From contig CAWIIB010000001.1 in assembly GCA_963836075.1 (NCBI GenBank), positions 1,504,001 through 1,568,000 on the forward strand: a stretch of DNA of 64,000 bases, in the 5' to 3' direction. The translations under genes and the position numbers were made by a program. The notes below the pieces were generated by a model. That model did no database searches, was not told the origin of the DNA, and saw nothing but the letters and a program-made list of their open reading frames with translations. Each line of letters opens with the position of its first letter. The stretch's first letter is position 1. The DNA comes from an uncultured Acidobacteriota bacterium. GTDB taxonomy: Bacteria; Acidobacteriota; JAQAZP01. This document shows, piece after piece, positions 29,607-57,828 of this stretch.

Positions 29607-31490
29607 ATGAGTAGAAAACTGCTGATTGCCTGTGCGCTGCTGGCGGTTCTCTTCAGCGCCGCAGCCCAGGCCGAAACGGTGGTGCCGGGTGGTGAGGTGT
29701 ACGGCACATGGGATGAGGTCGGCTCACCCTATCTGATCAAGGGCGAGATCACCGTCCCCGAATGTCAGACCCTGACCATCGACCCCGGTGTGGTGGTGGA
29801 CGTTCGCGGGCACTTCAAGATGATCGTTCACGGCACACTGGAAGCCGTGGGTACGGAGAGGCACAGGATCCTGTTCACCGCCGCCGACACCGTGGAGGGC
29901 TGGCACGGGATCCGATTCGTCGACACCATGGAGACCAGCCACCTCCAGTGGTGCATCATCGAACACGGACGGGCCAAGGGAATTGATATCAATGATCCGG
30001 ACGGTTGGGGTGGGGGAATCCTCTGCAGCGGCTCCAGCCCGGCCATCACCGACTGCATCGTCAGGAACTGTTCAGCCATCGGCTCCGGCGGCGGAATTTT
30101 CTTCCATCAATCCAAGTCGGAGATCACCCGCTGCAATTTCACCGGAAACTACGCCTCGATTCTGGGCGGGGGTGTGGCTGTCTACTTATCCGACATCGCG
30201 ATTCGGCAAAGCGGTATCACCGACAACAGCAGCGAAATGTGGGGGGGGCGGTCTTCACCCAGGATTCTTTCACCGGGATCGAAGACTGCACCATCCTCCG
30301 GAATCAGGCCGACCGGTTGGGTGGAGGGATCAGCGCCTACAACTGGAACCAATACTTTGAACGACAGTTGACCGTACGGGGCTGTACCATCACCGGAAAC
30401 AGTTCGGGGATGTGGGGCGGCGGGATCTCCGGTGACACCATCACCATGGAGATCGAGGGCAACGTCATATCGGGGAACCGGGCTCCGGGCAAGTATGGCG
30501 GTGGAATCTACGTCAACAACTGCGCCGGAACCGTTGAAAACAACATCATCTCGAGGAACACGGCGCTTGCCGGCGGCGGCATCGGCATGGCCACCAACTC
30601 TGTTGTCGATCTGATCAACAACCGTATCACCGGCAACTCGGCCGTGGAGGATGGCGGGGGTATCCGGTGGACCATCGGAAGCACTTCAGTGCTCAGAAAC
30701 ATGACCATTGCCGACAACACGGCGCCAAACGGGGCAGGGATCTTCGCTTGCAACAGATGCGACGTCCGTGCGATAAACACGATTTTCTGGGGCAATAAAG
30801 CGACGACCGGTGAGGCGGCATGGGTCGGGACGTCTTCAACCCTGCGCATCAGCTACTCCGATGTGCAACCGGGAAACTCCTCAGTTCTACGTGGCCCTGG
30901 GCGGCACGCTGGAATGGGGCGAGGGCATGATTTCCGAGGATCCGCTTTTCCGCGATCCGGACAACGGTGACTTCCACCTCTGCCAGGACCCCTGCCAGCC
31001 GGGGGTGAAAAATCCCTGTGTCGACGCGGGTCACCCGGTTAGCCCGATGATCCCCGGATCCACCCGCAGCGACTGCTGCTGCGACGTGGGGCGGGTGGAC
31101 ATGGGCTACCACTCCCCGGTCCCGAATTCAGTGGCCACCGACATCCGGATCGACCCCGAATCGGGTGTGCTCCCCTTCACCACCCGGGTCAGCGCCACCA
31201 TGAGCAATGTCCTGGGTGTGGAACGGACCCTGGCCGGCCGGATCGCCGTCACCCTGGCCAACGGGATGTGCTACCACAACCTCTGCCCGGGAGTTGTCGA
31301 ACTGGGCCCGCATGAGAGCCACTCGCTCATCTGGAACCAGGACCTGCCGGCCCAGGAGAGATACCTGGGGACCAACATCTTCGAACTCTTTGCCGTGGAT
31401 GTCACCCCGGCGCCGTTCAACCAGTCACCCTATCCCATGTCCGGCAATACCGACAAGGACACGGCCACCGTTACCGGCAGCAGCCGGTAG
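29607..31490 (+). CDS. Secreted right-handed parallel beta-helix (pectin-lyase-like) protein with CTD-A (frameshifts near 30245 and 30883)
   Basis: GGAGGAG RBS and a signal peptide. N-x-A-x-x-GGG repeats run across three overlapping ORFs (29571..30371, 30005..30970, 30810..31490). It ends with CTD-A DVTPAPFNQSPY. Confidence 0.8.
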
Positions 31491-31502
31491 CAGAACCGGA
31501 TA

Positions 31503-31542
31503 CCCGCACGGGGGACCACAGCTCCCCCTGCGGGGTTCTTTT
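31503..31542 (+). terminator. Terminator hairpin
   Basis: CCCGCAcGGGGGA...TCCCCCTGCGGG followed by TTCTTTT, between convergent genes. Confidence 0.6.
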
Positions 31543-31562
31543 CCGCTCGAGTTTTCGGGGGA

Positions 31563-32828
31563 CTACGAACCGGCGGGGCCGGGCCCCGTGAATTCGAGGT
31601 GGATGCCGTCTTCGCCGATCTTCACGTCGCCGGGAACCGGGTATCGCTCGTAGAGGCTGAACTGGATGCCGGCCTGACGCTGGTCGAAGACTTTGCGGTC
31701 CAGCAGCACGGTCCAGGGGACGAAGAGCTGGTTCTCGTGCTGCAGCACCTTCTGCTCCGAGAGGTTGAGCTCCCCGGAGAGGGTCTCCCGCACCCGGTTC
31801 CGCGACTGGTCATCCGGGCAGGTGATCACCGCCGACACCAGGGTGCCGTCGGGAGAGACGTCTTCAAAGGGCCGGGCCAGCGCCCGGGCCCGGCGGGCCA
31901 TCTGGTTCGGCACCTGGGTCAGGAACTTGCTGGCCACCGAACAGAAGTGGACATCGGTGGCACAGCCGGAATCGTTGCGGGCCCGGTCCATCAACTGCTC
32001 GCCCAGCTCCCTGCTGCCCAGGACGGGCCGCAGGATGGTGCCCGGCCGGGCGATGAAGTCACCGGGCGGGGCGGGGAGACCGCCGGGCAGACAGGGCACC
32101 TTGCGCTGAACCTCTTTCCCCGGCTGGTATCCAGCCCGCTGGGCCACCCGCTCGAACTGCGGCGTCTGCATGAAGAGCAGCTCGTGCAGGTTGATGAAGG
32201 CCACACCGGCCGCGATGGCCCCTTCGACGATCTTCTCGGTGATCCCCAGACCGGGGAGGCAGGGAATCTCCACCGCCACCGTCCAGTCCAGTTCCAGCGC
32301 CCGCTCCACCAGCGGCAGTTCCTTTGCCGAGGAGGGGTGGCAGCGAATCTCATCCACCCCCGCCTCGCGCACACGCTTCATCCCCTCCAGGCTGAACTTC
32401 GCATTGGCGGTGAAGAACTGGATGTGGAAGTCGGGGCCGCAGGTCTCGCGCAGCAGGCGGGCGTAGTGAACGGCCCGGTCCAGGTAGTTTGTGGGCTCAC
32501 CGCCGGTGAGACAGACCGCATCGGGGCTGCCCATTTTGACCAGCCGCAACAGTTCCTCATCGCTGCGGATGGTGAACTCGTCGGCCTGCATCCGGTCGCC
32601 CTTGCCGGCGCTGGAGCAGTAGAAGCAGTCCTTGGGGCACTCCTCCCCCAGGGAGAGACACAACCGTCCGCCCAGCAGACAGCGTCGGCAGCCTTCGGGG
32701 AGGTTCCCGGCCACCGGGTTCAACCCTGGTTTGATCTCTTCCCGGTGCCCCCCCAGCATGCGCTGCCAGAGGTAATTGGCTTGCCCTTGCCCGTCCCCGG
32801 AGGGAGGGGAGTGATCTTTGGTGTCCAT
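31563..32828 (-). CDS. Radical SAM protein, COG2108-like (related to PFL-activating enzyme)
   Basis: LPEGCRRC...CPKDCFYC, LTGGEP, GVDEIRCHP, EIP, FINLHEL and VHFCS motifs. Confidence 0.75.
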   Translation of the reverse strand: MDTKDHSPPSGDGQGQANYLWQRMLGGHREEIKPGLNPVAGNLPEGCRRCLLGGRLCLSLGEECPKDCFYCSSAGKGDRMQADEFTIRSDEELLRLVKMGSPDAVCLTGGEPTNYLDRAVHYARLLRETCGPDFHIQFFTANAKFSLEGMKRVREAGVDEIRCHPSSAKELPLVERALELDWTVAVEIPCLPGLGITEKIVEGAIAAGVAFINLHELLFMQTPQFERVAQRAGYQPGKEVQRKVPCLPGGLPAPPGDFIARPGTILRPVLGSRELGEQLMDRARNDSGCATDVHFCSVASKFLTQVPNQMARRARALARPFEDVSPDGTLVSAVITCPDDQSRNRVRETLSGELNLSEQKVLQHENQLFVPWTVLLDRKVFDQRQAGIQFSLYERYPVPGDVKIGEDGIHLEFTGPGPAGS

Positions 32829-33120
32829 GAATACCCTGAAGAATAGACGCCGGCGTCAGTGTTGTGGTGCCGCAGGACAGCAGGATTTTACCGGGGGCCG
32901 AATCAGATGTCCAGAGACCGGCCCCCCGGTTTACCCCCAGCCCTAACGCCAGTTGGAAATATTCACTGGTCAACCGGACAGGCCGTAATCGACCTGCACC
33001 GGCTATTTGCCAAACCCCGTTCCAGACTATATGATTTCTGTCACTTCCGTGGCGGATTCTTCCGGTGGCCCGCAACCTGCGCCGGAACCCGGTGAGAACG
33101 AATAGCGAAAGGACCCCCCG

Positions 33121-34650: not shown

Positions 34651-34663
34651 GGGGTTCGGCCCT

Positions 34664-39416: not shown

Positions 39417-42245
39417 TTGATGGTCGACCGTCGAGCAAGAAAATTCCAGCACCGGGTCCTCCGGGACCTGGCGCTGATATTCACTGCCCTGCTCTGCCTC
39501 TCCCTCCTCTCCCCTCCCCTGCCGGCCCAGGAAAATGACGAATGCCTGATGTGCCATGATGACTCGGACTTGACGGGATTCCACGGCGAGGTGGAGTTCC
39601 CGGTCTACGTCGATCCCAAACTGTTCGGCGACTCAGCCCATGCCGACATGGACTGCGTGGACTGCCACATCGACCTGATCGGCATCGACATGGAGCACGA
39701 CGAGGACGTGGAGCCGGTGGACTGCTCCATGTGCCACGACCAGCAGGCCGAACAGCATGCCCTGTCGCTGCACGGCCAGGCGGCAGCCCGGGGCGACGAA
39801 CTGGCCCCTTCCTGCAGCGACTGCCATACCAGCCACCACATTCTCTCTCACCTCGACCCGCAGTCCCCGACCAACAATATCAACATCCCCTTCCTCTGCG
39901 GCAAGTGCCACAGCGAAGGGGCGCCGGTGGCCCGGAACCGCGACATCCCCCAGGACCACATTCTGGCCAACTATTCCATGTCGATCCATGGTGAGGGCAT
40001 ATTCAAGAAGGGGTTGACCGTAACCGCGGTCTGCACCTCGTGCCATACCTCGCACATGATCCTCCCCCACACCGACCGCCGGTCGAGCATCTTTCCCGAC
40101 AACGTGTCCGACACCTGCACCCAGTGTCACGCCCGGATCGAGGAGGTGCACCGCAAGTTCATCGAAGGCGAACTGTGGGAGAAGGAACCGCACAAGATCC
40201 CGGTCTGCGTCGACTGTCACTCTCCGCACAAGATCCGCCGGGTCTTCTACCAGGCCGGTGCGGCGAACAAGGACTGCCTGCGCTGCCACGCGGACGAAAA
40301 CCTGGCCATGGAAAAGGACGGTGAGACCGTTTCCCTGTTCGTTGACGAAGCGGCATACAACGCGGGCAAACACTCCGGGACGGCCTGCGCCCAGTGCCAC
40401 ACCGAGGTTTCCACCTCTCTGGAAAGGCCCTGCGAACCGGTTCGCTCCCTGGTGGACTGCTCGATCTGCCATGCCGACCAGGTCCTGCAGCACTCGAACA
40501 GCATTCACGGCCACCTGGCCGCCCTGGGCGACACAGACGCACCGACCTGTCTCGACTGCCATGACCGACACGCGACAATGGACCACAAACTTCCCAGTTC
40601 GCCCACGTATGCTCGCAACGTGCCCGACCTCTGTGCCCGCTGCCACCGAGATGGCGAAGTCGCTGCAAACCGCATCGCCCCCGACCACCCGGAGCACATC
40701 GTCGGCAGTTACAATATGAGCATCCACGGCAAGGGGCTCATCGAGAGCGGCCTGGTGGTCACCGCCACCTGTATCAACTGCCACACGGCCCACGGCCCCC
40801 TGCCCTCGAGAGACCCGGCGTCCACGGTCCATCCGGACAACATCGCCCACACCTGCGGCACCTGCCACCACGGCATCGAGGAAACCTTCCAGGGCAGTAT
40901 TCACTGGCCGGAGAATGTGGATACCGACAAGGAACTGCCCACCTGCGAGGACTGTCACACATCCCACACCATTTCTCGCACTGACGGCACCGACTTCCGC
41001 ATGCTGATGATGAACCAGTGCGGACGTTGCCACGTGGACGAGACAAACACGTTCTTCGATACCTTCCACGGCAAGGTCTCGCGGCTGGGAGACTCCGGGG
41101 CGGCCAAGTGTTACGACTGTCACGGCACACACAACATCCTGCCCATCACCAACACCGAGAGCACCCTGAGCCGCGAGAACATCGTCGATACCTGCGGAGA
41201 GTGCCACCCCGGCGCGCACCGCCGTTTCGCCGGATACCTGACCCACGCCACGCACCACGACCCGGAAAAATATCCCTTCCTCTTCTGGGCTTTCTGGGGA
41301 ATGACCACCCTGCTGGTGGGCACACTGAGCTTCGCCATGATCCACACCCTGGCCTGGCTCTTCCGGCTCTGGCGCTCCCGCGAGGAGTGGCGGAAGATCC
41401 GCGAACTGCACAAGCCGGGCACGCAGTTCTACAAGCGGTTCACCACCGGTCAGCGGATCAACCATCTGGTGATGCTGCTCAGTTTCTTCACCCTGGCCCT
41501 GACCGGCATGGCGCTCAAGTTTTCCTACATGGGTTGGGCCCAGGCAATCTCCGATACCCTCGGCGGATTCGAAACCATGGGCACGCTGCACCGGATAGGG
41601 GCGGTGGCGCTGATCGTCATTTTCATCTTCCACCTGATGAATGTCTGGACCAAGCGCAAGGAGATGGGAATCTCCTGGCTGAAGTTCATCACCGGCCCCT
41701 ATTCCATGCTTTTCACCAAAACGGACCTCACCGAGTTCATCGCCTCGATCAAATGGTTCCTCGGCATCGGCCCGCGGCCCCGCTACGGCCGGTATACCTA
41801 CTGGGAAAAATTCGACTACTTCGCCGTCTTCTGGGGTGTCTTTATCATCGGGTCCACCGGATTCGTGCTCTGGTTCCCGGAATTCTTCACCCGCCTGCTT
41901 CCCGGCTGGTCGGTGAACGTCGCCACCATTATCCACAGCGACGAAGCGCTGCTGGCCGTGGCCTTTATCTTCACCGTCCACTTCTTCAACACCCACTTCC
42001 GCCCGGACAAATTTCCCATGGACCCGGTGATCTTCACCGGCCGGGTGACCCTCGACGAACTGAAGCACGACAAACCGCGGGAATATGAACAGGCAGTAGC
42101 CGATGGAACCCTTGAATCCCGAATGGCCCACCCCTATCCGAGGCGGGCCGAACGCCTGTTCCGCATCTTCGGTTTCTGTGCCCTGGCCATCGGACTGACC
42201 CTCATCGCCCTGATCACCTACTCCATGCTGTTCGGCTACCGGTAG
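39417..42245 (+). CDS. CbcL-like multiheme cytochrome c (19 CXXCH) fused to a cytochrome b membrane domain
   Basis: 19 CXXCH counted by hand; C-terminal TM domain with RINH, LHR, YWEKFDY, IHSDEA and VHFFN. Confidence 0.88.
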   Translation: MMVDRRARKFQHRVLRDLALIFTALLCLSLLSPPLPAQENDECLMCHDDSDLTGFHGEVEFPVYVDPKLFGDSAHADMDCVDCHIDLIGIDMEHDEDVEPVDCSMCHDQQAEQHALSLHGQAAARGDELAPSCSDCHTSHHILSHLDPQSPTNNINIPFLCGKCHSEGAPVARNRDIPQDHILANYSMSIHGEGIFKKGLTVTAVCTSCHTSHMILPHTDRRSSIFPDNVSDTCTQCHARIEEVHRKFIEGELWEKEPHKIPVCVDCHSPHKIRRVFYQAGAANKDCLRCHADENLAMEKDGETVSLFVDEAAYNAGKHSGTACAQCHTEVSTSLERPCEPVRSLVDCSICHADQVLQHSNSIHGHLAALGDTDAPTCLDCHDRHATMDHKLPSSPTYARNVPDLCARCHRDGEVAANRIAPDHPEHIVGSYNMSIHGKGLIESGLVVTATCINCHTAHGPLPSRDPASTVHPDNIAHTCGTCHHGIEETFQGSIHWPENVDTDKELPTCEDCHTSHTISRTDGTDFRMLMMNQCGRCHVDETNTFFDTFHGKVSRLGDSGAAKCYDCHGTHNILPITNTESTLSRENIVDTCGECHPGAHRRFAGYLTHATHHDPEKYPFLFWAFWGMTTLLVGTLSFAMIHTLAWLFRLWRSREEWRKIRELHKPGTQFYKRFTTGQRINHLVMLLSFFTLALTGMALKFSYMGWAQAISDTLGGFETMGTLHRIGAVALIVIFIFHLMNVWTKRKEMGISWLKFITGPYSMLFTKTDLTEFIASIKWFLGIGPRPRYGRYTYWEKFDYFAVFWGVFIIGSTGFVLWFPEFFTRLLPGWSVNVATIIHSDEALLAVAFIFTVHFFNTHFRPDKFPMDPVIFTGRVTLDELKHDKPREYEQAVADGTLESRMAHPYPRRAERLFRIFGFCALAIGLTLIALITYSMLFGYR

Positions 42246-42254
42246 TGGATCGAA

Positions 42255-42289
42255 TGTCACTTTTTGGTGTCAGGCACCAAAAAGTGACA
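42255..42289. repeat. REP-like perfect 15-bp inverted repeat at the RAYT 3' end
   Basis: TGTCACTTTTTGGTG-tcagg-CACCAAAAAGTGACA. Confidence 0.75.
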
Positions 42290-42326
42290 AAATCCTCAAA
42301 ACTGTCATCGGGTGAGAGACTGTCCT

Positions 42327-43202
42327 CTAGTGTTCATCGCCTTTCAGTGTTGTCCTCCCGTTGTGCGGCACCGAATCACGGACAGTCCGGCTCACCGTTC
42401 TGGGATGGACGTTGAAATGGCGGGCAATTTCTTTCATCGTGTATCCGCCGGATGAATAGGCTTCGAGAATTGCAGCTCGGGACGAAATGGCCTTCCGATC
42501 AATCTCCTCAAGTGACGGCGATACATACTTCCTCAGGGCCAGCACCGCGTCAGCATTCTCTTCGATCTCTGAAAGTTGGCGTGACAGATTTCTCACGAAT
42601 GTATCGCAACCCAGAACAAAGCCACCCCTCAGGTTCTTCCAGACAGAGGGGCGGTCAATTCCTGAAGCGACAAAGTCGATGAACAGCTCCCGTGCACGAT
42701 TCAAATCCTCATGGAACTGCCCAAGAATCCACTTTGTCTCAAGCCATGGAGGAGTTGGGGATAAACCGATCATTTGGGGGTAGCTGCTCCATGGCCAGTC
42801 CTCGACATTTTGTACCATGTTCACCCGTACCGGATTCAGTGGGACGTAGCGGGCCAACTCGAGCAGGTAGGACTCCTTTTCAACAAGTATTGACTTGAAG
42901 CGGTCCTGAAAAAGGTGGCCCACAAGACCGTATCTCCGATTGAAAGCCTGGGCATAAATGCCATTCAAATCCCTCATACCCTCTGACAGATTCGGCTGAG
43001 GTGTCTCCAGTAAAAGGTGGTAGTGGTTGCCCATCAGACAATAGGAGTGACAAATCCATCCCTTCCGGCAGCACACTTTGGATAGAATCGACAGCCACAG
43101 TCTTCGGTCATCGTTGTCAACATAGATATCCTCTTTCCTATCCCCCCTGGAGGTAATATGAAAAACGCCGCCAGCCATCTCCAGCCTCAACGATCTAGCC
43201 AT
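42327..43202 (-). mobile_element. REP-associated tyrosine transposase (RAYT, Y1 HUH) with C-terminal HTH
   Basis: MARxLR, FHITSRG, YCLMGNHYHLL, GHLFQDRFKS, YVPLNPVR, WPWSSY and TMKEIARHF...TVSR motifs; lower GC than the flanks. Confidence 0.88.
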
Positions 43203-43224
43203 ACGTTCAATTTAGTATTATTTT

Positions 43225-43248
43225 TGTCACTTTTCAAGACCTGACCCC
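43225..43248. repeat. RAYT 5'-end motif TGTCACTTTT-CAAGACCTGACCCC
   Basis: Shares TGTCACTTTT with the 42255 hairpin arm, and CCTGAC with the reverse complement of its loop region. Confidence 0.55.
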
Positions 43249-43265
43249 AAAAACGGACAAGAAGA

Positions 43266-43294
43266 GCCCGGTCGGGGAGGATCCCCGACCGGGC
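43266..43294 (-). terminator. Terminator of the decaheme-porin operon
   Basis: GCCCGGTCGGGG...CCCCGACCGGGC stem followed by TCTTCTTGT on the minus strand. It lies directly after the stop at 43308, not after the UGA at 43734. Confidence 0.7.
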
Positions 43295-43307
43295 ATAGAT
43301 GAAGAGA

Positions 43308-45449
43308 TTAGAAGAGGAACGAGAGGCCGGCGTTGATGACCCAGAGGTCGCCGGACTCGTCGAACAGATAGGGTTCGTTGTCTGTATACACCCGGTAAGC
43401 TCCGCCCAGTTGCAGGCCGACCATTTGGGTGAACTGGTAAGAACCGTTGAGGGTGATGTCGAACTGGTCGATATCCAGGTCCGAATAGCTGTTGACCCGA
43501 GTGAAGTCGTAGTAGCCAATGCCCGGCTGGCCATTGGGGGGGGTCGGATAGTTGACCTGGTCGTAGGAAGCGGTGCTGTCGGTGTAGGCGAGATTGAAGA
43601 AGATGTTCGTCTTCTCGCCGGGCGTCATGTTGAGGCCGACGGTTAAGGTGTCCCCCGTGGTCTCGTATTCTACCGAGTCTTTGATGCATCCGTAATGATC
43701 GAGATGTCCATCCAGGACTTCTATGAAGCCCGCTCACCCATCCATGACGGGTATGCTGAACAGCGTATCCGTCTCCTCCTCTATGTGCAGGTAACCCGCA
43801 GTGAGAACGGCCTTGTTGTTCAAGGCCAGGGTGTACGTAAGGCCGGGCTGGAACAGTGTTCTGCTCCAGTCGGCATAGGTCAGATCATCGTTTTTCTCGT
43901 CTGACCAGCGAATGTTGCCCGAAAGAGTGCTCCGGGCACTGAGGGACCAGGAGGCGGTCCACCGCAGTTGGTTGACGTTGTTCGGCTGGGCACCCACATC
44001 ACCGGTGCGGAACTGTCTCCGCATCCAGTACTGCCGGTACGCCGGATCATCGATATCCGACTCGCAGACCGCGTTGGGCGATGCAAAGGGATTGTCGATG
44101 TCGTCATGCTTCAGCGTCAGCCGGGTGCGGAATTTCCGGGTCGGCCTGAGGTTGACAGTGGCAAAAATCCGAATGGCATCGGTCCGCGTCTCGCCGTCAG
44201 CGACCTCGTAGTGCTCGCGGTCGGTGCTTTTCCACTCCAACCCGCCCCTGATGTTCATCTTGCTCGATGAGCGGTAGGAGAGGTCGGCGCCGGCCGTGGT
44301 CACGTCACGGTTGAGTGAAGACTGGCGCAGCCAGTCGAAATCGCCACCCCAGCGGGACTCGTAGGCCTCGCTGTTCTCTACATCAATAAAGATGTCATCG
44401 TTGTCGATGGCCTGGTGACGGATTTTCATGTTGAAGCGCCACTTGTTTTTCACGCCAAACTTGTCGGTGTACCTGGCCTGGAACCCGTTGCTGTCCGTAT
44501 TCAGGCCAGTCCACTGGTTCTGCACCGAAGCGAAGATCGCCGAAGTCACCAGGGAAGCGTTGCTCGGCAGGTCGAACTTGGCACGCACCTTGTGCGAGTC
44601 CTTGTCCACGTCGGGGATCAGGCCCACTTCACGTGTCTCGTCCTCGAACTGCAGCCGCGCATTGAAGATCACGCCGTAGTTGACGTCCTCACCGGTGGCC
44701 GGATCGTTCCAGATCTCGCCGCGCACCGGGTGCATGGCGTTGTCGTAATACCGGGTGGGAGTGGACCCACCGTCGGAGAAGGCGCGGGTGAGATACTTGT
44801 AGTCCATGGTCATCACGCCGGCGCGGAGCGTGGCCCCGGCCGTCAGATCACGGGTGGATTCGTCCACCTCGCGCCCCACGCCTTCCACGTGGCAGTTGCC
44901 GCAGTGGGAGACGCTCAGCTGCTGCCGGTGTCCCTGCCGCGACTGATCGCGATAACCGAAGTTGAAAGTCAAGTTGGGCATGGCGGGAATGGCCAGGTCA
45001 ATGTCCGCATGCTGATCGGTGTATGCGATCACATAATCAGCGTCCACCTCGAGATTCTCGTAGGTGTTCATCTTGCCGCCCATCTTGGAATCGATGTTGG
45101 TCAACGGGTCGTTCAACAGCCAGTGCGGCATTTTGTGGAACGAGTAGCTGGCCTGCAGAATGCGCCGGAAATCGAGAGAGGCGCTGTAATCCTGGTCCAT
45201 GGTGTCGTAGGGCCGGGCATACAAATTCCAGTAGAAGCCGTCGGTAGCGCCTTCCAGCTTCACCTCGCCGTCCATCCGACCGTCCTCGGATACCTGCTCG
45301 TACTCGCTGACCTTGCCGCCGTAATCGTTGATATCGCCGATGTGACCGCCTACGGTCACTTCGCCCTCGAAGCTCTCCTCACCCTCCGCCAGTGCAGGGG
45401 GGGCGGCGAGCAGCAGCAGGGCGAGGCTGATGTATAACAGCTTTTTCAT
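43308..45449 (-). CDS. MtrB/PioB-like outer-membrane porin with CXXCH and in-frame UGA (probable selenocysteine); resembles the GSU2204-type (seleno)protein family
   Basis: ORFs 43734..45449 and 43308..43628 are in the same frame, separated only by TGA (43736-43734) and 35 open codons. The joined 713-aa protein ends in the barrel motif INAGLSFLF and contains SHCGNCH. Confidence 0.85.
43702..43722 (-). promoter_or_regulatory. Candidate bacterial SECIS element
   Basis: AGAaGUCC-UGGAU-GGACaUCU hairpin 12-32 nt downstream of the UGA; the loop starts at +20 with G at loop position 2. Confidence 0.65.
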
Positions 45450-45465
45450 TTCACCCTCCTTTTGC

Positions 45466-46470
45466 TCACCGGGTCAGACCACGGCCGCCGCCAGTGATCG
45501 ACTGGCTGGGCAGGTCCGAACCGTGCACCTGCGAATGACACTGGGTGCATTTGGTGAGGAACGTCATCTTGGGCGCGTCCATGGAGGACGTGCCTTCACG
45601 GCCGTAGATGGTGGTGAAGTCGCCTTCGTCACCAGCCAGCCCCGCGTGGAAGTGCATGTCGTGGCACTGCAGGCAGAGGAACGGCTCGTTCTGGATCAGC
45701 AGGTTGTTGGCCACGCTGCCGTGGGCCTCGTGGCAGATGTCGCACGATTCGAGGACCGGCTCGTGCTCGAAGATGAACGGGCCCTGATACCGCGAATGGC
45801 AGTCGAGACACATGTCGGTGAGCCGCTCGTCGGTGGCCAGCAGCGGGTCCTCGATGGAACCGTGGACCTGGTGGCAGTCGCCGCAGCCCATCCGGCCTTC
45901 CGGGATCGGGTGGTGGGACGGCAGCAGCGTCATGCTCTGCTGTTCCTGGTGACACCCGTAACAGAGTTCGGGGTCATTCTTGACCAGCAGGTGTTCGGCC
46001 TGTGCCGAATGAATTTCGTGACATTCCATGCAGCCCACATCGCTCATGTCGTGAGTCGATCCGGACCAGTGCATCTGACCGCCATCGGTGTGGCATTTGA
46101 GGCATAGCGCCGAACCTTCAGCAGCAGCCAGTTCCTCGGGTCTCAGTATGTCCTTGGCGTCCTCGCTGTCGACGTGAAGACTTCCCGCCCCGTGGCAGGT
46201 CTCACAGTTCATTTCGAACCCGGTGGGACCGGTTTCGAATTCGGCCAGCCGGCCGTGAACCGTCGCCGCCATGGAGGCCAGGCTTTCCTCGTGGCACATG
46301 ACACAGGTCTCCTGCCCCACGAGTTCGGCGCCACTCACCACCGGCGCTTGCACGATCCGCGCCCGGGTCGGGTTTCCCGGGCCGCAACCCGGGAGCCAGA
46401 GTGCGAGAGTTGCCAGGACAACAACCGAGAGGAGCAGGACCGGAATCCTTCTATTCCCCTCCACTTTCAT
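45466..46470 (-). CDS. DmsE/MtrA/PioA-family decaheme cytochrome c, with lipobox
   Basis: Ten CXXCH, GPFIFEHEP, C-terminal CHSQVHGSDLPS and lipobox LPGC; 16 bp upstream of the porin gene. Confidence 0.9.
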   Translation of the reverse strand: MKVEGNRRIPVLLLSVVVLATLALWLPGCGPGNPTRARIVQAPVVSGAELVGQETCVMCHEESLASMAATVHGRLAEFETGPTGFEMNCETCHGAGSLHVDSEDAKDILRPEELAAAEGSALCLKCHTDGGQMHWSGSTHDMSDVGCMECHEIHSAQAEHLLVKNDPELCYGCHQEQQSMTLLPSHHPIPEGRMGCGDCHQVHGSIEDPLLATDERLTDMCLDCHSRYQGPFIFEHEPVLESCDICHEAHGSVANNLLIQNEPFLCLQCHDMHFHAGLAGDEGDFTTIYGREGTSSMDAPKMTFLTKCTQCHSQVHGSDLPSQSITGGGRGLTR

Positions 46471-46613
46471 TCCTCCTCTGAACCAACAAAGATATTTTGA
46501 TAGTGTTATGATTTTTTATCAGTGGCCGGCTTCTCCTTTCCCCTCTTTTGCCAGGCCTGCAATTGAAAACCCAGTCGTCGGAACCGCCGGGCCTGGGCCC
46601 GGCCGCTCCGCGT

Positions 46614-46979
46614 CTAATCGCCTTGTTCCAACGGATTGTCAAAGTCACCCAGATCCATAACTTCCACGTGGTCGTGGCAGGTCTCCCGGACCACGCGGGC
46701 CATAATGTGTATCGCCTCCATGACCAGGGGGTTGGCAATCCCATAGAGCAACTGGCGGCCGTTGCGCCGGCTGCGGATGATACTTGCTTGCTTGAGGATG
46801 TTCAGGTGCTGGGAAAGGCTCGATCCTGAAAAACCGACCTTTTCCCCCAGTTCGCCCACCGGCATCTCACCGGCTTCCAGCGTGTAGAGGATGTGCAGGC
46901 GTCGGGGATGGGAGATTGACCGGCAGACCTGGGAGTGGAGATCAAAGTACTGTCGAAGCTGCTTTGATTTGTCAGCCAT
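46614..46979 (-). CDS. ArsR/SmtB family transcriptional regulator
   Basis: SHPRRLHIL...LSQHLNILKQA...RRNG winged helix-turn-helix. Confidence 0.88.
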   Translation of the reverse strand: MADKSKQLRQYFDLHSQVCRSISHPRRLHILYTLEAGEMPVGELGEKVGFSGSSLSQHLNILKQASIIRSRRNGRQLLYGIANPLVMEAIHIMARVVRETCHDHVEVMDLGDFDNPLEQGD

Positions 46980-46984
46980 GCTTC

Positions 46985-47059
46985 ATCATTTCGTGAATTA
47001 ATAGTTGCGTAGTGCTTTAATTCAACGAATGATATATGACAAAACCATGACAAAGTCAA
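46985..47059 (-). promoter_or_regulatory. arsR promoter/operator region
   Basis: TTGACT -35 on the minus strand; imperfect inverted repeat at 46985-47001/47017-47033; TTGTCAT-N4-TTGTCAT direct repeat. Confidence 0.6.
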
Positions 47060-47192
47060 CGGGATCAGAGCCCCGATCCATACAGATAATTCCTATAGAA
47101 TCAGTAGGATATAAGATTCAACCGATTCATCGAAAAGCATTTATTCGAATCCAGCTTCCTCGGCAAAGCTCAGGAACTTCCCCGAAATTTTG

Positions 47193-49196
47193 CTATTCCT
47201 CGGGTAACGAATCCGGCTCGCTGCCGGGGACCACGTCCTCCAGCTGCTTGCGCAGACGTTCCTCGGTCACTTTTCGCGCTTCATCCACGTGCTCGGGGTG
47301 TTCGTGGCGATACATCTCCTCGGGCATCAGCCCGGTGATCCAGCTGGGATTCATCGGGTAGACCGCCGGATTGAAGACCGTGGAATAGAGGTGCCAGACA
47401 AGGATGGCCAGCGATGCCAGCCAGGCCTCCCAGAAGTGGATCACCAGCGCCACGTCGAGAAATCCCTTGGGCAGGAAACCGATGAACCAGTTGTCGAACC
47501 AGAGCAGCAGCCCGGTGACCACCATCACCGCCGTGCCCCAGACCAGCGCCCAGTATTCAGCCTTTTCCACATAGCTGAAGCGGTGGAATCGGGGAGACTC
47601 CTTCCGCCGGCCGATGCAGTAGAGGATGCGCTGCCAGAACTGGGTAAAATCCTTAGGCAACGGCATCATGTCTTTGATGAACTCCCGTCCGCGGCGGCTG
47701 GTGGTGAGGTAGAGCAGGTGCCAGACCACGGTGAGACTGAAAATCACCGCGGCGATCCGGTGCACCAGCCCGCGCATTTCGAAGCCCCCTTCCCAGCCGA
47801 AAAAGACCTTGGCCAAGAAACTCTCGTCATAGGTCAGGGCAAACCCGGAGACCACCAGGGTGATAAAGCTGATCATCAGGATAGTGTGCTGCCAGACCTC
47901 GTTGAGCCGCATCCGCCGCACCTGGGGACGCCGGTTCATCATCAGTTTGATGTGCCGCCCCAGGTCGATCAGCCAGTGCAGCACCATCAGGCCGATGATC
48001 ACCACGATGGCGATGATGTATACCTTCTCAACCAGGTCGGCCAGCGGCGTGCGCAGACCTTCACCGGTGACCCCGTGAATCGGCATGGCCGCCATCTTCT
48101 CCGAGATCCCGGGGTGGCAGTCACCGCAGGTGTGCTGGAGGTTCGCCGGATGTACCGTGGAGGAGGGGTTGGAACTGGGCAGGATGCGGTGGACCCCGTG
48201 GCACGACGCACAGTTGGCCACGTGGGTATCGCCGGCCTTGCTCTTCAAACCGTGGTAACTGTCAATGAACGTCGCCAGCCGGCCGGACTGCAGCCCGTAT
48301 TTTTCGTTGAGTACCGCCGACTCGTGGCACGGCGAACAGGTTTCCTCGGCCAGCCGGGCGCTGGATACCGGGGACCGCGGGTCGTCGGGCGAGATGATCC
48401 CGTGCTCACCGTGGCAGTTGGTGCAGACCGGTGCGTCGGTTTCGCCCCGCTCCACCAGGTGGCCGTGGATCCCCTCCATGAAATCGCTCTCCACCCCCCT
48501 GTGGCACTTGCCGCAGGTCTGGGGGATGTTGAAGTGGTTGATCGCCGAGTCCGCGTGCCCGGGAGCCAGAATCTTGTGCGCCGTGCCGCCGCTGGAATGG
48601 CAGTCGTTACAGGTGGCCGCCACGTATACTCCGCCCTTGGCTGCCATGCCATGAACGCTGCCCTGGTAAATGGCGATCGGTTTGTCGATCAGGATCTCAT
48701 ATTTCTTGGTGAGATCAAGGTCTTCGTGGCACCTGCCGCAGGTCCCGGGAAGATTCACCGGATGGGTTTTGGAAAGTTTGACGCTGGAGGGCAGGATGTC
48801 GTGGTCGCCGTGGCAGTCCTTGCACTGCGGCATGTCCTCACAGGATCCTATTGCTGCCCGGCCGTGGGCCTGGTACTGTTCACCGGCATCCTCATGACAC
48901 ATCCGGCAGCCTTCACATCCCACCACAAAGTCGGACGTCTCGTCATGCGGGGTCATGTCCTTGTCGATGTGACAGTCGAGGCACTCGAAGTCCCGGTGGA
49001 TCGAATGCGAGAGATCCTCCCCGAAGTCGGTGCCATGGCTGCTCTCCTCGTGGCACATCACGCAGTCCTCGCTGGTGATCGGCTCGGCATCTTCATCCTG
49101 GGCCTGCAGGCCAACGCCAAAGAAGAGGGGCAGGATAAGGACCAGCACCAACAGTGCGAAATTCGTGTTCCAGACAGTGCTACGGCAGCAGCTCAT
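47193..49196 (-). CDS. Second CbcL-like multiheme cytochrome c (11 CXXCH) with cytochrome b domain
   Basis: 11 CXXCH; WQH, VHRIAA, SYVEKAEYWA, IHFWEA and VWHLY TM motifs. Confidence 0.88.
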   Translation of the reverse strand: MSCCRSTVWNTNFALLVLVLILPLFFGVGLQAQDEDAEPITSEDCVMCHEESSHGTDFGEDLSHSIHRDFECLDCHIDKDMTPHDETSDFVVGCEGCRMCHEDAGEQYQAHGRAAIGSCEDMPQCKDCHGDHDILPSSVKLSKTHPVNLPGTCGRCHEDLDLTKKYEILIDKPIAIYQGSVHGMAAKGGVYVAATCNDCHSSGGTAHKILAPGHADSAINHFNIPQTCGKCHRGVESDFMEGIHGHLVERGETDAPVCTNCHGEHGIISPDDPRSPVSSARLAEETCSPCHESAVLNEKYGLQSGRLATFIDSYHGLKSKAGDTHVANCASCHGVHRILPSSNPSSTVHPANLQHTCGDCHPGISEKMAAMPIHGVTGEGLRTPLADLVEKVYIIAIVVIIGLMVLHWLIDLGRHIKLMMNRRPQVRRMRLNEVWQHTILMISFITLVVSGFALTYDESFLAKVFFGWEGGFEMRGLVHRIAAVIFSLTVVWHLLYLTTSRRGREFIKDMMPLPKDFTQFWQRILYCIGRRKESPRFHRFSYVEKAEYWALVWGTAVMVVTGLLLWFDNWFIGFLPKGFLDVALVIHFWEAWLASLAILVWHLYSTVFNPAVYPMNPSWITGLMPEEMYRHEHPEHVDEARKVTEERLRKQLEDVVPGSEPDSLPEE

Positions 49197-49620: not shown

Positions 49621-51528
49621 ATGCTGATCCAGACCAGGCGGTGGCCCATACCCGTTGTCGCCCTGCTTGTGGCGCTGATCTGCGCCGCCACGGCCGGCGT
49701 GGCAACGGCCCAGGAGTACAAGGAGCCGGAAGGGACTCCCCTGCCCGAATACGCGCGCAAGATCCACATCGACCGGACGGTGCCCTTTATCATCGAAAAG
49801 GGCATGCGGGGCGACCCCGGCCTGCCGAATGTCATGCTCACCGGGTACTGGCCGCCGACCAATGAGATGCTGCGCCGCTTCAGCCCCGACCCGGTGCAGA
49901 ATCCCGACGGCTGGATCGGCGCGAACTGGGAGGGGCGCGGGTTCAACGTCTACGCCTTTTTCCCCGAGTTCCCCGAAGGCCTGGGCCAGGGCGAGGGGGA
50001 TTTCGAGGTGGACTACCAGGACACCTCGGAGGACTTCTGGCCCATCGCCGAAGTAGTCAAGCCGGTGGCCATCATCACCTTTGGTCGGGCCTCACCAAAC
50101 CGGGACTGGGAGCTGGAGTGGCGCGGACGGAACCTTCCCGAATTCGACTGGTATCCCGATTACACCGACCCGCGCAGGCCCACACCCTCGCCGCCCGACG
50201 GCAGTGTCCCGGAAGACCACATCCGCTATTCCACCCTGCCGATGGACGAGATCGTTGACGCATTGAACAGCTCGGATCTCGGGATCAACGCCTTTGCCGA
50301 CACCACCGAAGATGCCGGCGCCTTTCTCTGCGAGTTCATTGGCTACCACGCTGCCTGGTATCACGACCTTCACGAATCCCCCGGTGATCCGGACCAGGTC
50401 CTCACCGCCGGACACATCCACGTGGGCAGCAACATCGGCCTCGCCGAAGCCACCGAAGCCGCCGAGATTACCGTGCGCACCATGCTCGACATTCTCGCGC
50501 CCTCGCTGGTCCCGCAGGCCGGCCTCATCGCCGGCCCCGGCCCCGCGGAGACCAACCCGCCAACGGTGCGGGTCTTTGACGCGGAATCGTATGCCGCACA
50601 CCGTTACGAGTTCACCGCCTATGGCGTACCCAAGTATGGCGTGAACGTCTCCGCCGGCGACCCCGACGGTGACGGTCTGGACGAGATCCTCACCGGCGCC
50701 GGGCCGGGTGCGGTCTTCGGCCCCCACGTCCGGGGCTTCGAGGCCTGGGGCGCACCGCTGCCCGGTCTCAGCTTCCTGGCCTACGGCACCAACAAGTACG
50801 GGGTCAATGTCTGCTGCGGCGACATCGACGGCGACGGCTTCGACGAGATCGTCACCGGCGCCGGGCCGGGCGCTGTCTTCGGCCCCCATGTCCGGGCCTG
50901 GAACTATGACGGCTCGCCAGGGGTGGCCCCGGCGGCCGGGGTGAGCTACTTCGCCTACGGCACACCCAAGTGGGGGGTCAACGTGGCCTGCGGTGACATC
51001 GACGGCGACGGCTTCGACGAGATCGTCACCGGCCCCGGGCCGGGCGCAGTCTACGGCCCCCACGTCAGGGGCTGGAACGTGGACAACGGCCCGGCAGCCG
51101 CAATGCCATCGGTGAGCTACTTCGCCTTCGGCACACTGAAGTTCGGGGTCAACGTGGCCTGCGGCGACGTGGACGGTGACGGCATGGATGAAATCATAAC
51201 CGGCGCCGGACCGGGGTCCATTTTCGCCTCCCACGTCCGCGGCTGGAACTACGACAACGGCTCCATCGCCTCCCTCCCCGGTTTCAGCTACTTCGCCTGG
51301 CCCGAAAGCGCCTGCCGCTTCGGGGCCAAGGTCTTCTCCGGTGTGGACCTGGACGGCGACGGCAGCGACGAGCTGCTGGTGGGCGCCGGACCGGACCCGG
51401 CGGTGGAGACCGCGCTCAAGCTCTACCGCTACAACGGCTCGGCAGTCACCGAATCGCTCTCCCTGCAGCCCTTCCCCGCCGGCTGGACCCACGGGTCCAC
51501 CGTGGCCGCGGGACGGTTTCAGGACTGA
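49621..51528 (+). CDS. Secreted pyroglutamyl-peptidase I (C15)-like protein with CTD-B
   Basis: VMLTGYWP, LE, DAGAFLCEF (catalytic Cys) and GHIHV (His); signal peptide; FG-GAP module from ~50521. Confidence 0.8.
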   Translation: MLIQTRRWPIPVVALLVALICAATAGVATAQEYKEPEGTPLPEYARKIHIDRTVPFIIEKGMRGDPGLPNVMLTGYWPPTNEMLRRFSPDPVQNPDGWIGANWEGRGFNVYAFFPEFPEGLGQGEGDFEVDYQDTSEDFWPIAEVVKPVAIITFGRASPNRDWELEWRGRNLPEFDWYPDYTDPRRPTPSPPDGSVPEDHIRYSTLPMDEIVDALNSSDLGINAFADTTEDAGAFLCEFIGYHAAWYHDLHESPGDPDQVLTAGHIHVGSNIGLAEATEAAEITVRTMLDILAPSLVPQAGLIAGPGPAETNPPTVRVFDAESYAAHRYEFTAYGVPKYGVNVSAGDPDGDGLDEILTGAGPGAVFGPHVRGFEAWGAPLPGLSFLAYGTNKYGVNVCCGDIDGDGFDEIVTGAGPGAVFGPHVRAWNYDGSPGVAPAAGVSYFAYGTPKWGVNVACGDIDGDGFDEIVTGPGPGAVYGPHVRGWNVDNGPAAAMPSVSYFAFGTLKFGVNVACGDVDGDGMDEIITGAGPGSIFASHVRGWNYDNGSIASLPGFSYFAWPESACRFGAKVFSGVDLDGDGSDELLVGAGPDPAVETALKLYRYNGSAVTESLSLQPFPAGWTHGSTVAAGRFQD

Positions 51529-51549
51529 TACCAATCAGCCGTCCCTGCA

Positions 51550-51589: not shown

Positions 51590-51746
51590 TCGAACCCTGC
51601 CCCGCTTTCCCCGTTACTAATCACATAGTAGCCGGAACCAGATGATTTTCCGGCTCCGTGCATCTCTGATAACTGGAGGTATCTCACCGCATCAGGGGGG
51701 GGAATGCACTTTAATTCATGTCCTTATGTGCAAGGAGACGTATTCG

Positions 51747-53186: not shown

Positions 53187-53218
53187 AGTTTGACTGGCAA
53201 CACTCCTCCAGTCTCCCC

Positions 53219-53259
53219 CGGCGTCCCGCCCGATGGCATGCGGGATGCCGGATTTTTTT
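53219..53259 (+). terminator. Rho-independent terminator
   Basis: CCGGCGTCCCGC...GCGGGATGCCGG followed by TTTTTTT. Confidence 0.7.
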
Positions 53260-53344
53260 GCCTGCGGACCGTCAAGAATTGACTTCCCCGGGTCAGTGAG
53301 TATCCTTTGATTTTTCCCGAATGACGCCTGGCTGGACCAGACAG

Positions 53345-55612: not shown

Positions 55613-55626
55613 CCCGACCAGGCGAA

Positions 55627-57828
55627 TCACCAGGCGAACCGGCCGGCGGCCACGTTCACCCCGTGGGTCCAGCCATCGGGAAAGGCCTGGAGCGAGTGCC
55701 AGAGCGACAGGGTCCCATTCCGGCAACGGTAGATGTTGATCCGGGACCCGCCCTCCGGGTCAGGCCCCTCCCCCACCACCAGGTCATCGGTGCCGTCGAA
55801 GTTCAGGTCGCGGCAGGCAAAGACGGAGGCGCCGTAGCGGGCGTCCCCGGCAGGCCAGGCGAGGAAGTCGATACCGGTCAGGGGGGTGATCGTCTGACCG
55901 TCATAGTTCCAGCCGCGGATGTGAGCGCTGAATACCGGCGAAGGGCCCGGCGCGGTAATGATCTCGTCGATATTGTCTCCGTCAACATCACCACAGGTCA
56001 CCCGCACGCCCATCCGGTTCGTTCCATACGCCAGAAAGTTCACCCCGTCAATGGCCCTTGCCGGATGGTCGTCAACGGACCAGCCGCGCACGTGGGGTCC
56101 ATAGATCGCACCCGGCCCGGCACCGGTGATGATCTCATCCGGCCAGTCGCCATCGATGTTGCCGCAGGCCACGTTGACACCCCACCTGGGCGTGCCGTAG
56201 GCAAAGAAATTGATATCGGGCATGGGGCTCGCCTCGCCCGATTGGTCGTCAACGGTGAAGCCCCGGACGTGGGGCCCAAATACGGCCCCCGGCCCGGCGC
56301 CGGTGATGATCACCTCGCCCCCGTCCCGTTCCATGATCCCGGTGGTAACGTTGACCCCGTAGCGGTTTGTTCCGTACGCCATGAAACTGAGTCCGGTGAC
56401 CGGCTCACCGAATCGTGAAAACCCCCGCACATGGGGTCCGTAAATTTCACCCGGGCCGGGCCCGGTGATGATCTCCATATATGGATTGCTCGTGGTCAGG
56501 TACCCCGCGGTCACGTTCACGCCATGGCGCGGCGCGCCGTAAGCCGGAAACGCCATCGATGGCTCCGGATCCTCGGTGAGGGGAAAAACCTTTACCACGG
56601 GCGGATTGTCTTCGGACGGCCCGGCACCGGCCAGCAGCCAGACCGGCGGCGGCCAGTCCACGGGATAGTGGAAACCCATGTCCAGTCGGCCCGTATCAAC
56701 ACCCGTGTCGGTGCGCGTGGTTCCGCCGTGGGGCGGCAGCTCCGGGTTGCCGGCATCTACGCAGAGGCTGTCGACGAACTGGCCGGCCGCCTGCTGGGAG
56801 AGCAGGGACTGGCCGACAAAGAGGGGATCGACATCCAACATCCCCTCACCGATTTCAATGTCGCTGGATTCGTTATAAATCCATTGCCACCCGTTATCGA
56901 CCATTGAATAGTCGATCCCGAAGGTTCCGTAGAACACTGCGATCTCGTCTCCCAGGGTGGACCGGTTGAAGTGGAAGATGGTGTTGGAGATGATGGTATC
57001 CTGGTTAAAGTTTAGCACTCCACCGCCGTAGGTGTCCCCGCCTCCGTCACAGTCCGCCTCGTTGTAGGCGATGGTGCACTGATCGACGAGCAGGTATCCG
57101 CCCCCGGCATAGACACCTCCGCCGTAACCGATAGAATCGTAGACCGCACCGAATCCGATGGCCAGATTCCAGATGATCAGGTTGTTGACCAGGTATAGTG
57201 GTTGCTCATCGGTTCCGCAGTTGAAGAGGCAAACACCTCCGCCATAGGCGTGCACCCAATCGTAGATCCCGTCGGAATCATTGCTCCGGATGATGTTGCC
57301 GGTGATCATTGCCGAGGAATTCTCACAGAATATACCGCTGCCCGCCTGGCCCCCGTTGTCGCGGATCAGGTTGCCGGTGATGGTGGGGCTGCTGTCCAAA
57401 CAGAGAATGCCGCCGCCGCACCGCAAATCCCAGGAAGGCAGATCCGTGCCACGGCCGCGGTGGATGGTGAACCCCTCAAGAATCGAGTCGGGGCCTTCTC
57501 CGGACTCGAAGGTAACCACGCTGCCCACCCCCGGACCGTTCTCGATCCTGGTGTTCCACGGACCATCCTCGGATCGAAGGTGAACCGCCTTGCCGAGAAA
57601 ATTGATCGACTCCACGTAGTCGCCGGCGGACACCAGCACGGTGTCGCCATCTGCCGATGCGTCGATCCCGGCCTGGATGGAGGGCTGGTCACCCGGCACA
57701 TGGATCGTGTCGGCAGGTGCGGTCAGGGCGGCGGTCAGCGACAGGCCGAGCACCAGACCAGCAGGCAGGAGGATCGATCGGCACCCCCCCCTGAAAAACC
57801 TCTCGTTGATCGACATTTCGCCGCTCAC
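55627..57828 (-). CDS. Secreted right-handed beta-helix protein with CTD-B
   Basis: TIHVPGDQPSIQAGID, GGGI repeats, CVDAGNP...DMGFHYP linker, then the GPGPG...GPHVRG module. Start is 57828 (GTG) or 57816. Confidence 0.85.
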   Translation of the reverse strand: MSGEMSINERFFRGGCRSILLPAGLVLGLSLTAALTAPADTIHVPGDQPSIQAGIDASADGDTVLVSAGDYVESINFLGKAVHLRSEDGPWNTRIENGPGVGSVVTFESGEGPDSILEGFTIHRGRGTDLPSWDLRCGGGILCLDSSPTITGNLIRDNGGQAGSGIFCENSSAMITGNIIRSNDSDGIYDWVHAYGGGVCLFNCGTDEQPLYLVNNLIIWNLAIGFGAVYDSIGYGGGVYAGGGYLLVDQCTIAYNEADCDGGGDTYGGGVLNFNQDTIISNTIFHFNRSTLGDEIAVFYGTFGIDYSMVDNGWQWIYNESSDIEIGEGMLDVDPLFVGQSLLSQQAAGQFVDSLCVDAGNPELPPHGGTTRTDTGVDTGRLDMGFHYPVDWPPPVWLLAGAGPSEDNPPVVKVFPLTEDPEPSMAFPAYGAPRHGVNVTAGYLTTSNPYMEIITGPGPGEIYGPHVRGFSRFGEPVTGLSFMAYGTNRYGVNVTTGIMERDGGEVIITGAGPGAVFGPHVRGFTVDDQSGEASPMPDINFFAYGTPRWGVNVACGNIDGDWPDEIITGAGPGAIYGPHVRGWSVDDHPARAIDGVNFLAYGTNRMGVRVTCGDVDGDNIDEIITAPGPSPVFSAHIRGWNYDGQTITPLTGIDFLAWPAGDARYGASVFACRDLNFDGTDDLVVGEGPDPEGGSRINIYRCRNGTLSLWHSLQAFPDGWTHGVNVAAGRFAW

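What the first reader, a model, noticed from the sequence alone, without database searches (positions are those of the whole stretch)
31015..56765. Direct evidence of module swapping: same cargo and linker, different CTD
Two beta-helix paralogues end their cargo region with the same motif: CVDAGHPVSPMIPGSTRSDCCCDVGRVDMGYHSP (~31015-31118) and CVDAGNPELPPHGGTTRTDTGVDTGRLDMGFHYP (~56660-56763, minus strand). The first continues straight into CTD-A and the second into CTD-B. This pins the module boundary and suggests the two CTDs are alternatives for the same slot, possibly two destinations or two anchors.
Basis: seen in the sequence. Interest (0 to 1): 0.75.

Follow-up and report, generated by a model that had tools for sequence, protein, structure and literature searches.

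The report
Beta-helix end cap, two swappable tails
The shared motif is simply the common end-piece of a widespread protein domain, but the two different tails that follow it really are interchangeable, unnamed modules that this bacterial lineage attaches to many exported proteins, probably to hold them at or route them to the cell surface.

Summary
The motif is real: 31017-31118 (+) and 56763-56662 (-), 19 of 34 residues identical, followed at once by CTD-A (123 aa beta-sandwich) or CTD-B (340 aa six-bladed FG-GAP propeller). It is not a dedicated linker. It is the conserved C-terminal end-piece of a widespread right-handed beta-helix domain (7,651 clusters; up to 7 or more copies per protein), a divergent, below-cutoff relative of NCBIfam choice-of-anchor Q. 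In 151 copies from other genomes it is followed by another internal domain (61), dockerin-like modules (38), unnamed lineage tails (16), T9SS CTDs (6), a stop (6) and others, largely by taxon. The two cargoes here are only about 32% identical, so this pair is weak evidence of a swap, and the first gene is broken by two frameshifts. Both are most likely surface-retention or targeting modules of Sec-exported proteins; separate destinations are untested.

The parts
29607..31490 (+). Gene A: signal peptide + long right-handed beta-helix + end-piece + CTD-A; split over three frames in this sequence
   Evidence: tblastn of intact relative P0044 gives three pieces, 85/72/81% identical; Pfam Beta_helix, Chlam_PMP, NosD; model of P0044
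30241..30248 (+). Frame break 1 in gene A, at a run of 8 G
30878..30890 (+). Approximate place of frame break 2 in gene A
   Evidence: overlap of frame-2 and frame-3 matches to P0044, sequence; position approximate
30924..31118 (+). Beta-helix end-piece A (DPLF...CVDAG...TRSD...DMGYHSP); the quoted motif is 31017-31118
31119..31487 (+). CTD-A, 123 aa beta-sandwich, no Pfam or NCBIfam family
55627..57816 (-). Gene B (729 aa, intact, = P0001): signal peptide + beta-helix + end-piece + CTD-B
   Evidence: model pLDDT 87.9
56662..56856 (-). Beta-helix end-piece B (DPLF...CVDAG...TRTD...DMGFHYP); the quoted motif is 56763-56662
55630..56661 (-). CTD-B, about 340 aa, six-bladed FG-GAP beta-propeller (24 strands)
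2573..2938 (+). CTD-A copy on an alpha/beta-hydrolase-like cargo (641-2941), no motif before it
8590..8958 (-). CTD-A copy on a small cargo (gene 9574-8587, one frame break), no motif
11256..11618 (+). CTD-A copy on a BNR-like cargo (9900-11621), no motif
23899..24267 (-). Terminal CTD-A copy of the 1040-aa protein 27018-23896
24790..25149 (-). Internal CTD-A copy in the same protein
6627..7622 (+). CTD-B copy on a peptidyl-arginine-deiminase-like cargo (one frame break near 5540)
21625..22638 (+). CTD-B copy on an FG-GAP/ASPIC-UnbV cargo
50512..51525 (+). CTD-B copy on a pyroglutamyl-peptidase-like cargo
57828..58856 (-). CTD-B copy on a peptidase C25 (gingipain-like) cargo, gene directly upstream of gene B

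Best explanation
Two things are superimposed. (1) The motif is the last about 70 residues of a common extracellular right-handed beta-helix domain: an irregular end-piece that closes the helix, a divergent relative of choice-of-anchor Q. Because the domain ends there, whatever a genome appends starts right after DMG(Y/F)HxP; the motif itself does not select or mediate the swap. (2) This lineage (which includes an Acidobacteriota MAG) appends one of two unrelated genome-wide tails, CTD-A (Ig-like beta-sandwich) or CTD-B (six-bladed FG-GAP propeller), to many Sec-exported enzymes and adhesin-like proteins, and exchanges them by domain shuffling at domain borders. The tails most likely keep the cargo at the cell surface or matrix by non-covalent binding (CTD-B as a calcium-binding, lectin-like propeller; CTD-A by docking on a surface partner). 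Shown: boundary, folds (predicted), terminal position, mutual exclusion, interchange on orthologous cargo. Inferred: capping role, export, anchoring.
For: End-piece: beta-helix Pfam match upstream in 47 of 54 copies; 7,651 clusters at E<=0.001 among 1.84 billion, 2-7 copies in each of the top 150 proteins; ends the protein in 6 of 151 copies, P0002 and 19 of 150 representatives; modelled at pLDDT 83-90 with little regular structure; several solved beta-helices align into it (7dmk_A Z 27.0, rmsd 2.6, 275 aligned, model range 1..350; 1ru4_A Z 23.6, range 1..347); choice_anch_Q is the commonest weak match (5 of 72, best E 0.0024) and the profile aligns to a true choice_anch_Q segment at hhalign 98%. 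Tails: terminal 118/120 and 116/120, none of 240 with both; hydrophobic N-terminus in 96/120 and 101/120 against 9 of 1200 internal windows, no C-terminal TM segment in 240; CotH cargo 81% identical over 576 aa, GSDH 65-70%, DUF362 67-68% with either tail; 6 of 43 multi-member cargo families are mixed. Binding rather than cleaved signal: 12 of 120 carry two CTD-A, P0090 has it N-terminal; top Foldseek hits of model B are glycan-binding or integrin propellers (2bwm, 9oee_A); Bap1/RbmC propellers bind exopolysaccharide (PMC10102183, passages).
Against: No experiment or structure shows binding or export. The end-piece was unresolved in the gene-A model (pLDDT about 26, shallow alignment), and packing on the helix could not be measured. 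7 of 54 upstream segments had no beta-helix match. The near-strict terminal position and Ig-like fold of CTD-A fit a T9SS-like export signal equally well. 37 of 43 multi-member cargo families keep one tail, so exchange is occasional. Propeller fold matches are generic (Kelch, NHL, Z 20-23). The samples are top-scoring hits, not random.
Confidence: 0.62

Rival explanations
1. CTD-A and/or CTD-B are recognition signals of an undescribed outer-membrane export machine (works like T9SS type A and type B CTDs), sending cargo to two destinations.
For: Almost always terminal, with conserved last residues (xAP in most CTD-A, AGRF commonest in CTD-B); CTD-A is an Ig-like sandwich of T9SS-CTD-like size; in FCB-group genomes a T9SS type A CTD sits in the same slot after the same motif; the organism looks diderm (MtrB/PioB porin and multihaem cytochromes); T9SS has two CTD types with different shuttles and destinations (PMC12618676, abstract).
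Against: No match of CTD-A or CTD-B to TIGR04183/PF18962 or any sorting model; CTD-A vs T9SS CTD hhalign 0.4%; tandem, internal and N-terminal CTD-A copies exist; a 340-aa propeller is large for a signal; cargo classes overlap between tails; no export machine seen in the window.
Confidence: 0.25
2. The tails are accessory domains (substrate binding, stability, calcium binding) spread by domain shuffling, with no role in sorting or anchoring.
For: FG-GAP propellers and Ig folds are promiscuous extracellular domains; CTD-A can be internal or doubled.
Against: One conserved tail on dozens of unrelated cargo families with different substrates, nearly always last, mutually exclusive.
Confidence: 0.1
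3. One reading: the motif is a dedicated linker or recombination joint, and the two window genes arose by a direct tail swap on one cargo.
For: The tail starts within -3 to +7 residues of the motif end in all 39 CTD proteins where the motif adjoins the tail; the tree needs 5 label changes and puts P0044 beside CTD-B cargoes.
Against: Cargoes 32% identical; only a short codon-level DNA match at the motif (local score 35); 201 of 240 CTD proteins and 8 of the 10 CTD genes in the window lack the motif; AU test does not reject one origin (p 0.062); the motif is internal in at least 61 of 151 copies.
Confidence: 0.05

Closest known systems
Choice-of-anchor Q domain (NCBIfam NF041518)
   Same: About 60-70 aa segment at the end of beta-helix domains, with DPLF...S.C.DAG...D(M/L)G; true Q segments in L008 and L026 pass the cutoff and align to the motif profile (hhalign 98%, E 1e-13, one template). 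Followed by different tails, which is what 'choice-of-anchor' names (10.1101/2023.03.06.531300, passages on the A family).
   Different: This variant has an extra SQxAAGQ insert, TRTD and GYH in place of GAYE; 0 of 72 reach the cutoff of 25 bits (best 18.1); the two window copies give no hit.
T9SS type A / type B C-terminal domains
   Same: Two alternative C-terminal tags on Sec-exported cargo in one genome; CTD-A is a small beta-sandwich; T9SS type A CTDs follow the same motif in Electryoneota, Calditrichota, Zixibacteria records.
   Different: No sequence similarity; CTD-A can be doubled or internal; CTD-B is a propeller; no T9SS machinery shown.
FG-GAP/VCBS propeller anchors (Vibrio Bap1/RbmC, Psathyrella lectin PVL, integrin alpha)
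   Same: FG-GAP repeats with DxDGDG loops; propeller fold; PVL, UmbA4 and integrin heads are top Foldseek hits; Bap1/RbmC use a shared propeller as matrix anchor beside variable domains (PMC10102183).
   Different: Six blades predicted rather than seven or eight; used as a genome-wide terminal tag on at least 2,042 proteins in the searched set; ligand unknown.
CARDB-like Ig domains
   Same: Weak structural hits of the gene-A model to CARDB (3idu_B, E 1.6e-3) and a low Atlas lead (0.81).
   Different: No Pfam match even at E 10; leads only.

Membership tests
choice-of-anchor Q (NF041518) | Score at or above the curated cutoff (25 bits) | tested here: not met
   Window copies no hit; 5 of 72 copies weak, best 18.1 bits
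choice-of-anchor Q (NF041518) | Homology to true Q segments by profile comparison | tested here: met
   hhalign probability 98%, 56 columns, against one segment (L008) that passes the cutoff; single template
choice-of-anchor domains in general | Occurs before several unrelated C-terminal anchors or sorting signals | tested here: met
   T9SS CTD (6), Pro/Thr+TM tail (3), dockerin-like (38), CTD-B (2) of 151 copies; CTD-A in 10 proteins
T9SS type A CTD (TIGR04183/PF18962) | HMM match of the tail | tested here: not met
T9SS CTD | N-terminal signal peptide plus strictly terminal position | tested here: inconclusive
   Hydrophobic N-terminus in 197 of 240 (heuristic); terminal in 234 of 240, but doubled, internal and N-terminal CTD-A copies exist
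T9SS CTD | T9SS machinery in the genome; cleavage on export | not testable with these tools
   Only 64 kb of the genome was available
Sortase/exosortase-type signals (LPXTG, PEP-CTERM) | C-terminal motif + TM helix + basic tail | tested here: not met
   0 of 240 CTD proteins have a hydrophobic C-terminal segment
FG-GAP beta-propeller | FG-GAP repeats and propeller fold | tested here: met
   PF01839/PF13517 above cutoff in 4 of 5 window copies, weak (E 0.0017) in gene B; 24-strand model; propeller matches
Glycan-binding propeller anchor (Bap1/RbmC-like) | Direct binding to a surface or matrix polysaccharide | not testable with these tools
   Needs a binding assay
CARDB | Pfam match or clear single-domain structural match | tested here: inconclusive
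   No Pfam hit; weak Foldseek hits from a whole-protein model; CTD-A was not folded alone

The most novel reading that the evidence does not exclude
An uncultured diderm lineage (including Acidobacteriota MAGs) has an undescribed protein surface-display or export system with two unrelated address tags, a novel Ig-like CTD-A and a six-bladed FG-GAP CTD-B, each on very many exported proteins, which send the same kinds of cargo to two different destinations, as T9SS type A and B tags do but with unrelated parts.
Probability: 0.25. Interest if true: 0.75.

Novelty: new variant of a known kind. Interest (0 to 1): 0.45.

Why it matters
The motif itself is ordinary, but it is a useful probe: because it ends a very common domain, what follows it lists the terminal tags that each uncultured lineage uses, including at least four unnamed ones. 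CTD-A has no family model, and CTD-B is labelled only as generic FG-GAP, so a large exported proteome of this lineage has no known targeting logic. If the two tails prove to be addresses, this would be a new parallel to the T9SS two-signal system outside Bacteroidota and would give new surface-display tags.

Tried and rejected
Direct assignment of the motif to choice_anch_Q: below cutoff. Idea that CTD-A is homologous to the Ig-like tails of Coatesbacteria, CSSED10-310-like, Calditrichota/Zixibacteria or Planctomycetota records: hhalign 0.07-0.34%, no better than reversed decoys (up to 2.4%), rejected. DNA-level recombination joint at the motif: only a short codon-level match. Repeated swaps among beta-helix cargoes: 5 changes on a quick tree against 8.9 for shuffles, but starred branches force only 1 and AU p is 0.062, so not shown. 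Single-sequence region search for the motif found only 2 proteins. No solved chain matches the motif profile by sequence at E 10. Atlas gave only sub-0.9 leads for CTD-A and generic FG-GAP clusters for CTD-B. My regex for beta-helix was noisy (22 of 196 motif-free cargoes scored positive), so Pfam was used instead. CTD-A was not found in any of the 139 loci. No complex prediction was run, as no binding partner is proposed. Literature searches found no paper on this motif or these tails; subscription papers and supplements were not covered. Unchecked: metagenome and viral contig collections (closed), source names and taxa of the P proteins (cluster look-up unavailable), the rest of the genome.
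Full report
Observation. A six-frame search finds the D(M/I/L)G(Y/F/A)(H/Y) core exactly twice in the window. The quoted 34-mers lie at 31017-31118 (+) and 56763-56662 (-), 19 of 34 identical; the similarity extends to 70 residues at 46% (E 8e-14). A degenerate DNA pattern for TR(T/S)DxxxDxGxxD(M/I/L)G(Y/F)H finds these two places and none in 100 shuffles. CTD-A (123 aa) and CTD-B (344 aa) start directly after. Gene B (729 aa, P0001) is intact. Gene A is in three frames: its intact relative P0044 matches 29607-30248, 30242-30949 and 30882-31487 at 85, 72 and 81%. Two other CTD genes in the window also have a frame break against intact relatives, so sequencing error is more likely than decay; that is inference.

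The cargoes are not the same. P0044 and P0001 align at 32% over 268 columns and begin differently. Of 151 motif copies from other genomes, 78 resemble motif B more than motif A does, and the best matches to motif A are Planctomycetota records. The pair are distant paralogues.

What the motif is. This is not a random sample and copies from one genome are not independent. I scanned 54 upstream segments, one per locus out of 82 with enough sequence: 47 match Beta_helix or Chlam_PMP at E<=0.05. A profile of 72 copies finds 7,651 clusters at E<=0.001; the top 150 proteins carry 2-7 copies each by my count, and 19 end within 10 residues of the last copy. In the model of gene B (mean pLDDT 87.9) the segment scores 83-90 with little regular structure between helix and propeller, and several solved beta-helices align up to model residue 347-354, i.e. 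through it (ranges give end points only). In the shallower gene-A model it was unresolved. The best family lead is choice_anch_Q: 5 of 72 weak hits, best 18.1 bits against a cutoff of 25, and a 98% hhalign match to one true Q segment. So it is the end-piece of the beta-helix domain and a divergent Q relative; a capping role is inferred from position and from general knowledge of solenoid proteins.

Classifying what follows the 151 copies (clusters; Pfam on 69 chosen followers; NCBIfam on 30; hand assignment): InlB-B-repeat-like internal domain 32, another beta-helix 29, dockerin-like 38 (10 terminal, 16 followed by 370 aa or more, 12 end not seen), unnamed lineage tails of about 100-165 aa 16 (some cut by the locus end), other cargo or Ig domains 13, stop within 9 aa 6, T9SS type A CTD 6 (4 direct, 2 after one Ig domain), Pro/Thr linker plus TM tail 3, short Chloroflexota tail 2 (its reading as a sorting motif is recalled, no call), CTD-B 2, truncated 4. 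The follower tracks taxon, so it is not arbitrary, but in about half of the copies it is an internal domain. CTD-B occurs in an Acidobacteriota MAG (L045) and an unnamed bacterium (L139) whose genome also has a dockerin-like follower (L094); CTD-A was in none of the loci.

The tails. The window has 6 CTD-A copies in 5 genes and 5 CTD-B copies in 5 genes, on unrelated cargoes; only 2 of these 10 genes have the motif. Searches gave 285 CTD-A and 2,042 CTD-B proteins among 8,000 candidates each; the best 120 of each were examined. CTD-A is within 10 residues of the end in 118, CTD-B in 116; none of 240 has both; 39 have the motif adjoining the tail. 197 of 240 have a hydrophobic N-terminus (9 of 1,200 internal control windows) and none a C-terminal TM segment. 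Twelve contig lengths, read by eye, recur in both lists, which suggests both tails in the same genomes. The real swap evidence lies in motif-free cargoes: P0019 (A) and P0150 (B) are 81% identical over 576 aa; GSDH cargoes are 65-70% identical and end at the same residue before either tail; DUF362 cargoes 67-68%. Of 43 multi-member cargo families 6 are mixed, two of these linked loosely, and 37 keep one tail. Among 39 beta-helix cargoes the tree needs 5 changes, but one origin of the A set is not rejected (AU p 0.062).

Folds. CTD-A is a beta-sandwich without Pfam or NCBIfam match, with weak CARDB-type leads, and is not detectably related to T9SS CTDs or other lineage tails. CTD-B has 24 strands, i.e. 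six blades, FG-GAP repeats, and top Foldseek hits to the lectin PVL, UmbA4 and integrin heads.

Mechanism. Sec export followed by non-covalent retention through the tail is my best reading: doubled, internal and N-terminal CTD-A copies (12 and 2 of 120) and a large lectin-like CTD-B fit binding modules better than cleaved signals, and Vibrio Bap1/RbmC give a precedent for a shared propeller anchor (PMC10102183, passages read). A T9SS-like pair of export signals with distinct destinations remains a serious rival (PMC12618676, abstract and outline read; PMC9143113, search listing only). The meaning of 'choice-of-anchor' is from passages of 10.1101/2023.03.06.531300. Nothing here shows two destinations; peptidases, beta-helices, CotH, GSDH and DUF362 occur with both tails.

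Novelty and verdict. Searches of the paper library found no description of this motif or of these tails. The motif is a new variant of a known kind and the window pair is weak evidence for a swap; the two-tail system behind it is real, unnamed and worth a genome-wide follow-up. Interest 0.45.

Noticed in passing
window 29607-31490, 9574-8587, 5167-7625, 11775-13317: Three CTD genes have frame breaks against intact relatives, and the B12/radical-SAM gene at 11775-13317 is also split over two ORFs; this pattern suggests long-read indel errors in the assembly.
   Followed up: partly
window 39417-49196: Multihaem cytochrome cluster with an MtrB/PioB porin (43734-45449), a decahaem-like cytochrome (45466-46470) and two cytochrome b/c fusions: a likely extracellular electron-transfer conduit, interrupted by an IS200-like transposase (42327-43202).
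   Followed up: no
window 57825-63998 (-): Gingipain-like peptidase C25 of over 2,000 aa ending in CTD-B where Bacteroidota relatives carry a T9SS CTD (recalled); C25 proteins with CTD-A also exist (P0109, P0117).
   Followed up: partly
P0090, residues 56-180: Signal peptide followed by an N-terminal CTD-A and a 330-aa unknown domain, the only inverted arrangement among 120; a candidate partner or scaffold.
   Followed up: no
L008, L053, L054, L088, L089; L005, L012, L036, L096; L060, L132; L039: At least four further unnamed lineage-specific terminal domains of about 100-165 aa follow the same motif in Coatesbacteria, Planctomycetota and unassigned records; no Pfam or NCBIfam match in those scanned.
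   Followed up: partly
L050/L077/L078 and L004: A record titled Klebsiella pneumoniae MAG and one titled Woesearchaeota carry motif proteins resembling those of other lineages (L123/L124-type and Planctomycetota-type); probably mislabelled or misbinned contigs.
   Followed up: no
L072, L062, L068: Giant proteins built from near-regular repeats of beta-helix + end-piece (about 420 aa period, five copies in L072), L072 ending in a TM tail.
   Followed up: partly
window 31017-31118: End-piece A is cysteine-rich (CQDPCQP...PC...DCCCD), and the CQ/QDPCQP variant is shared with Planctomycetota records L005, L060, L096, L132, its closest matches; possible horizontal origin of cargo A, untested.
   Followed up: partly
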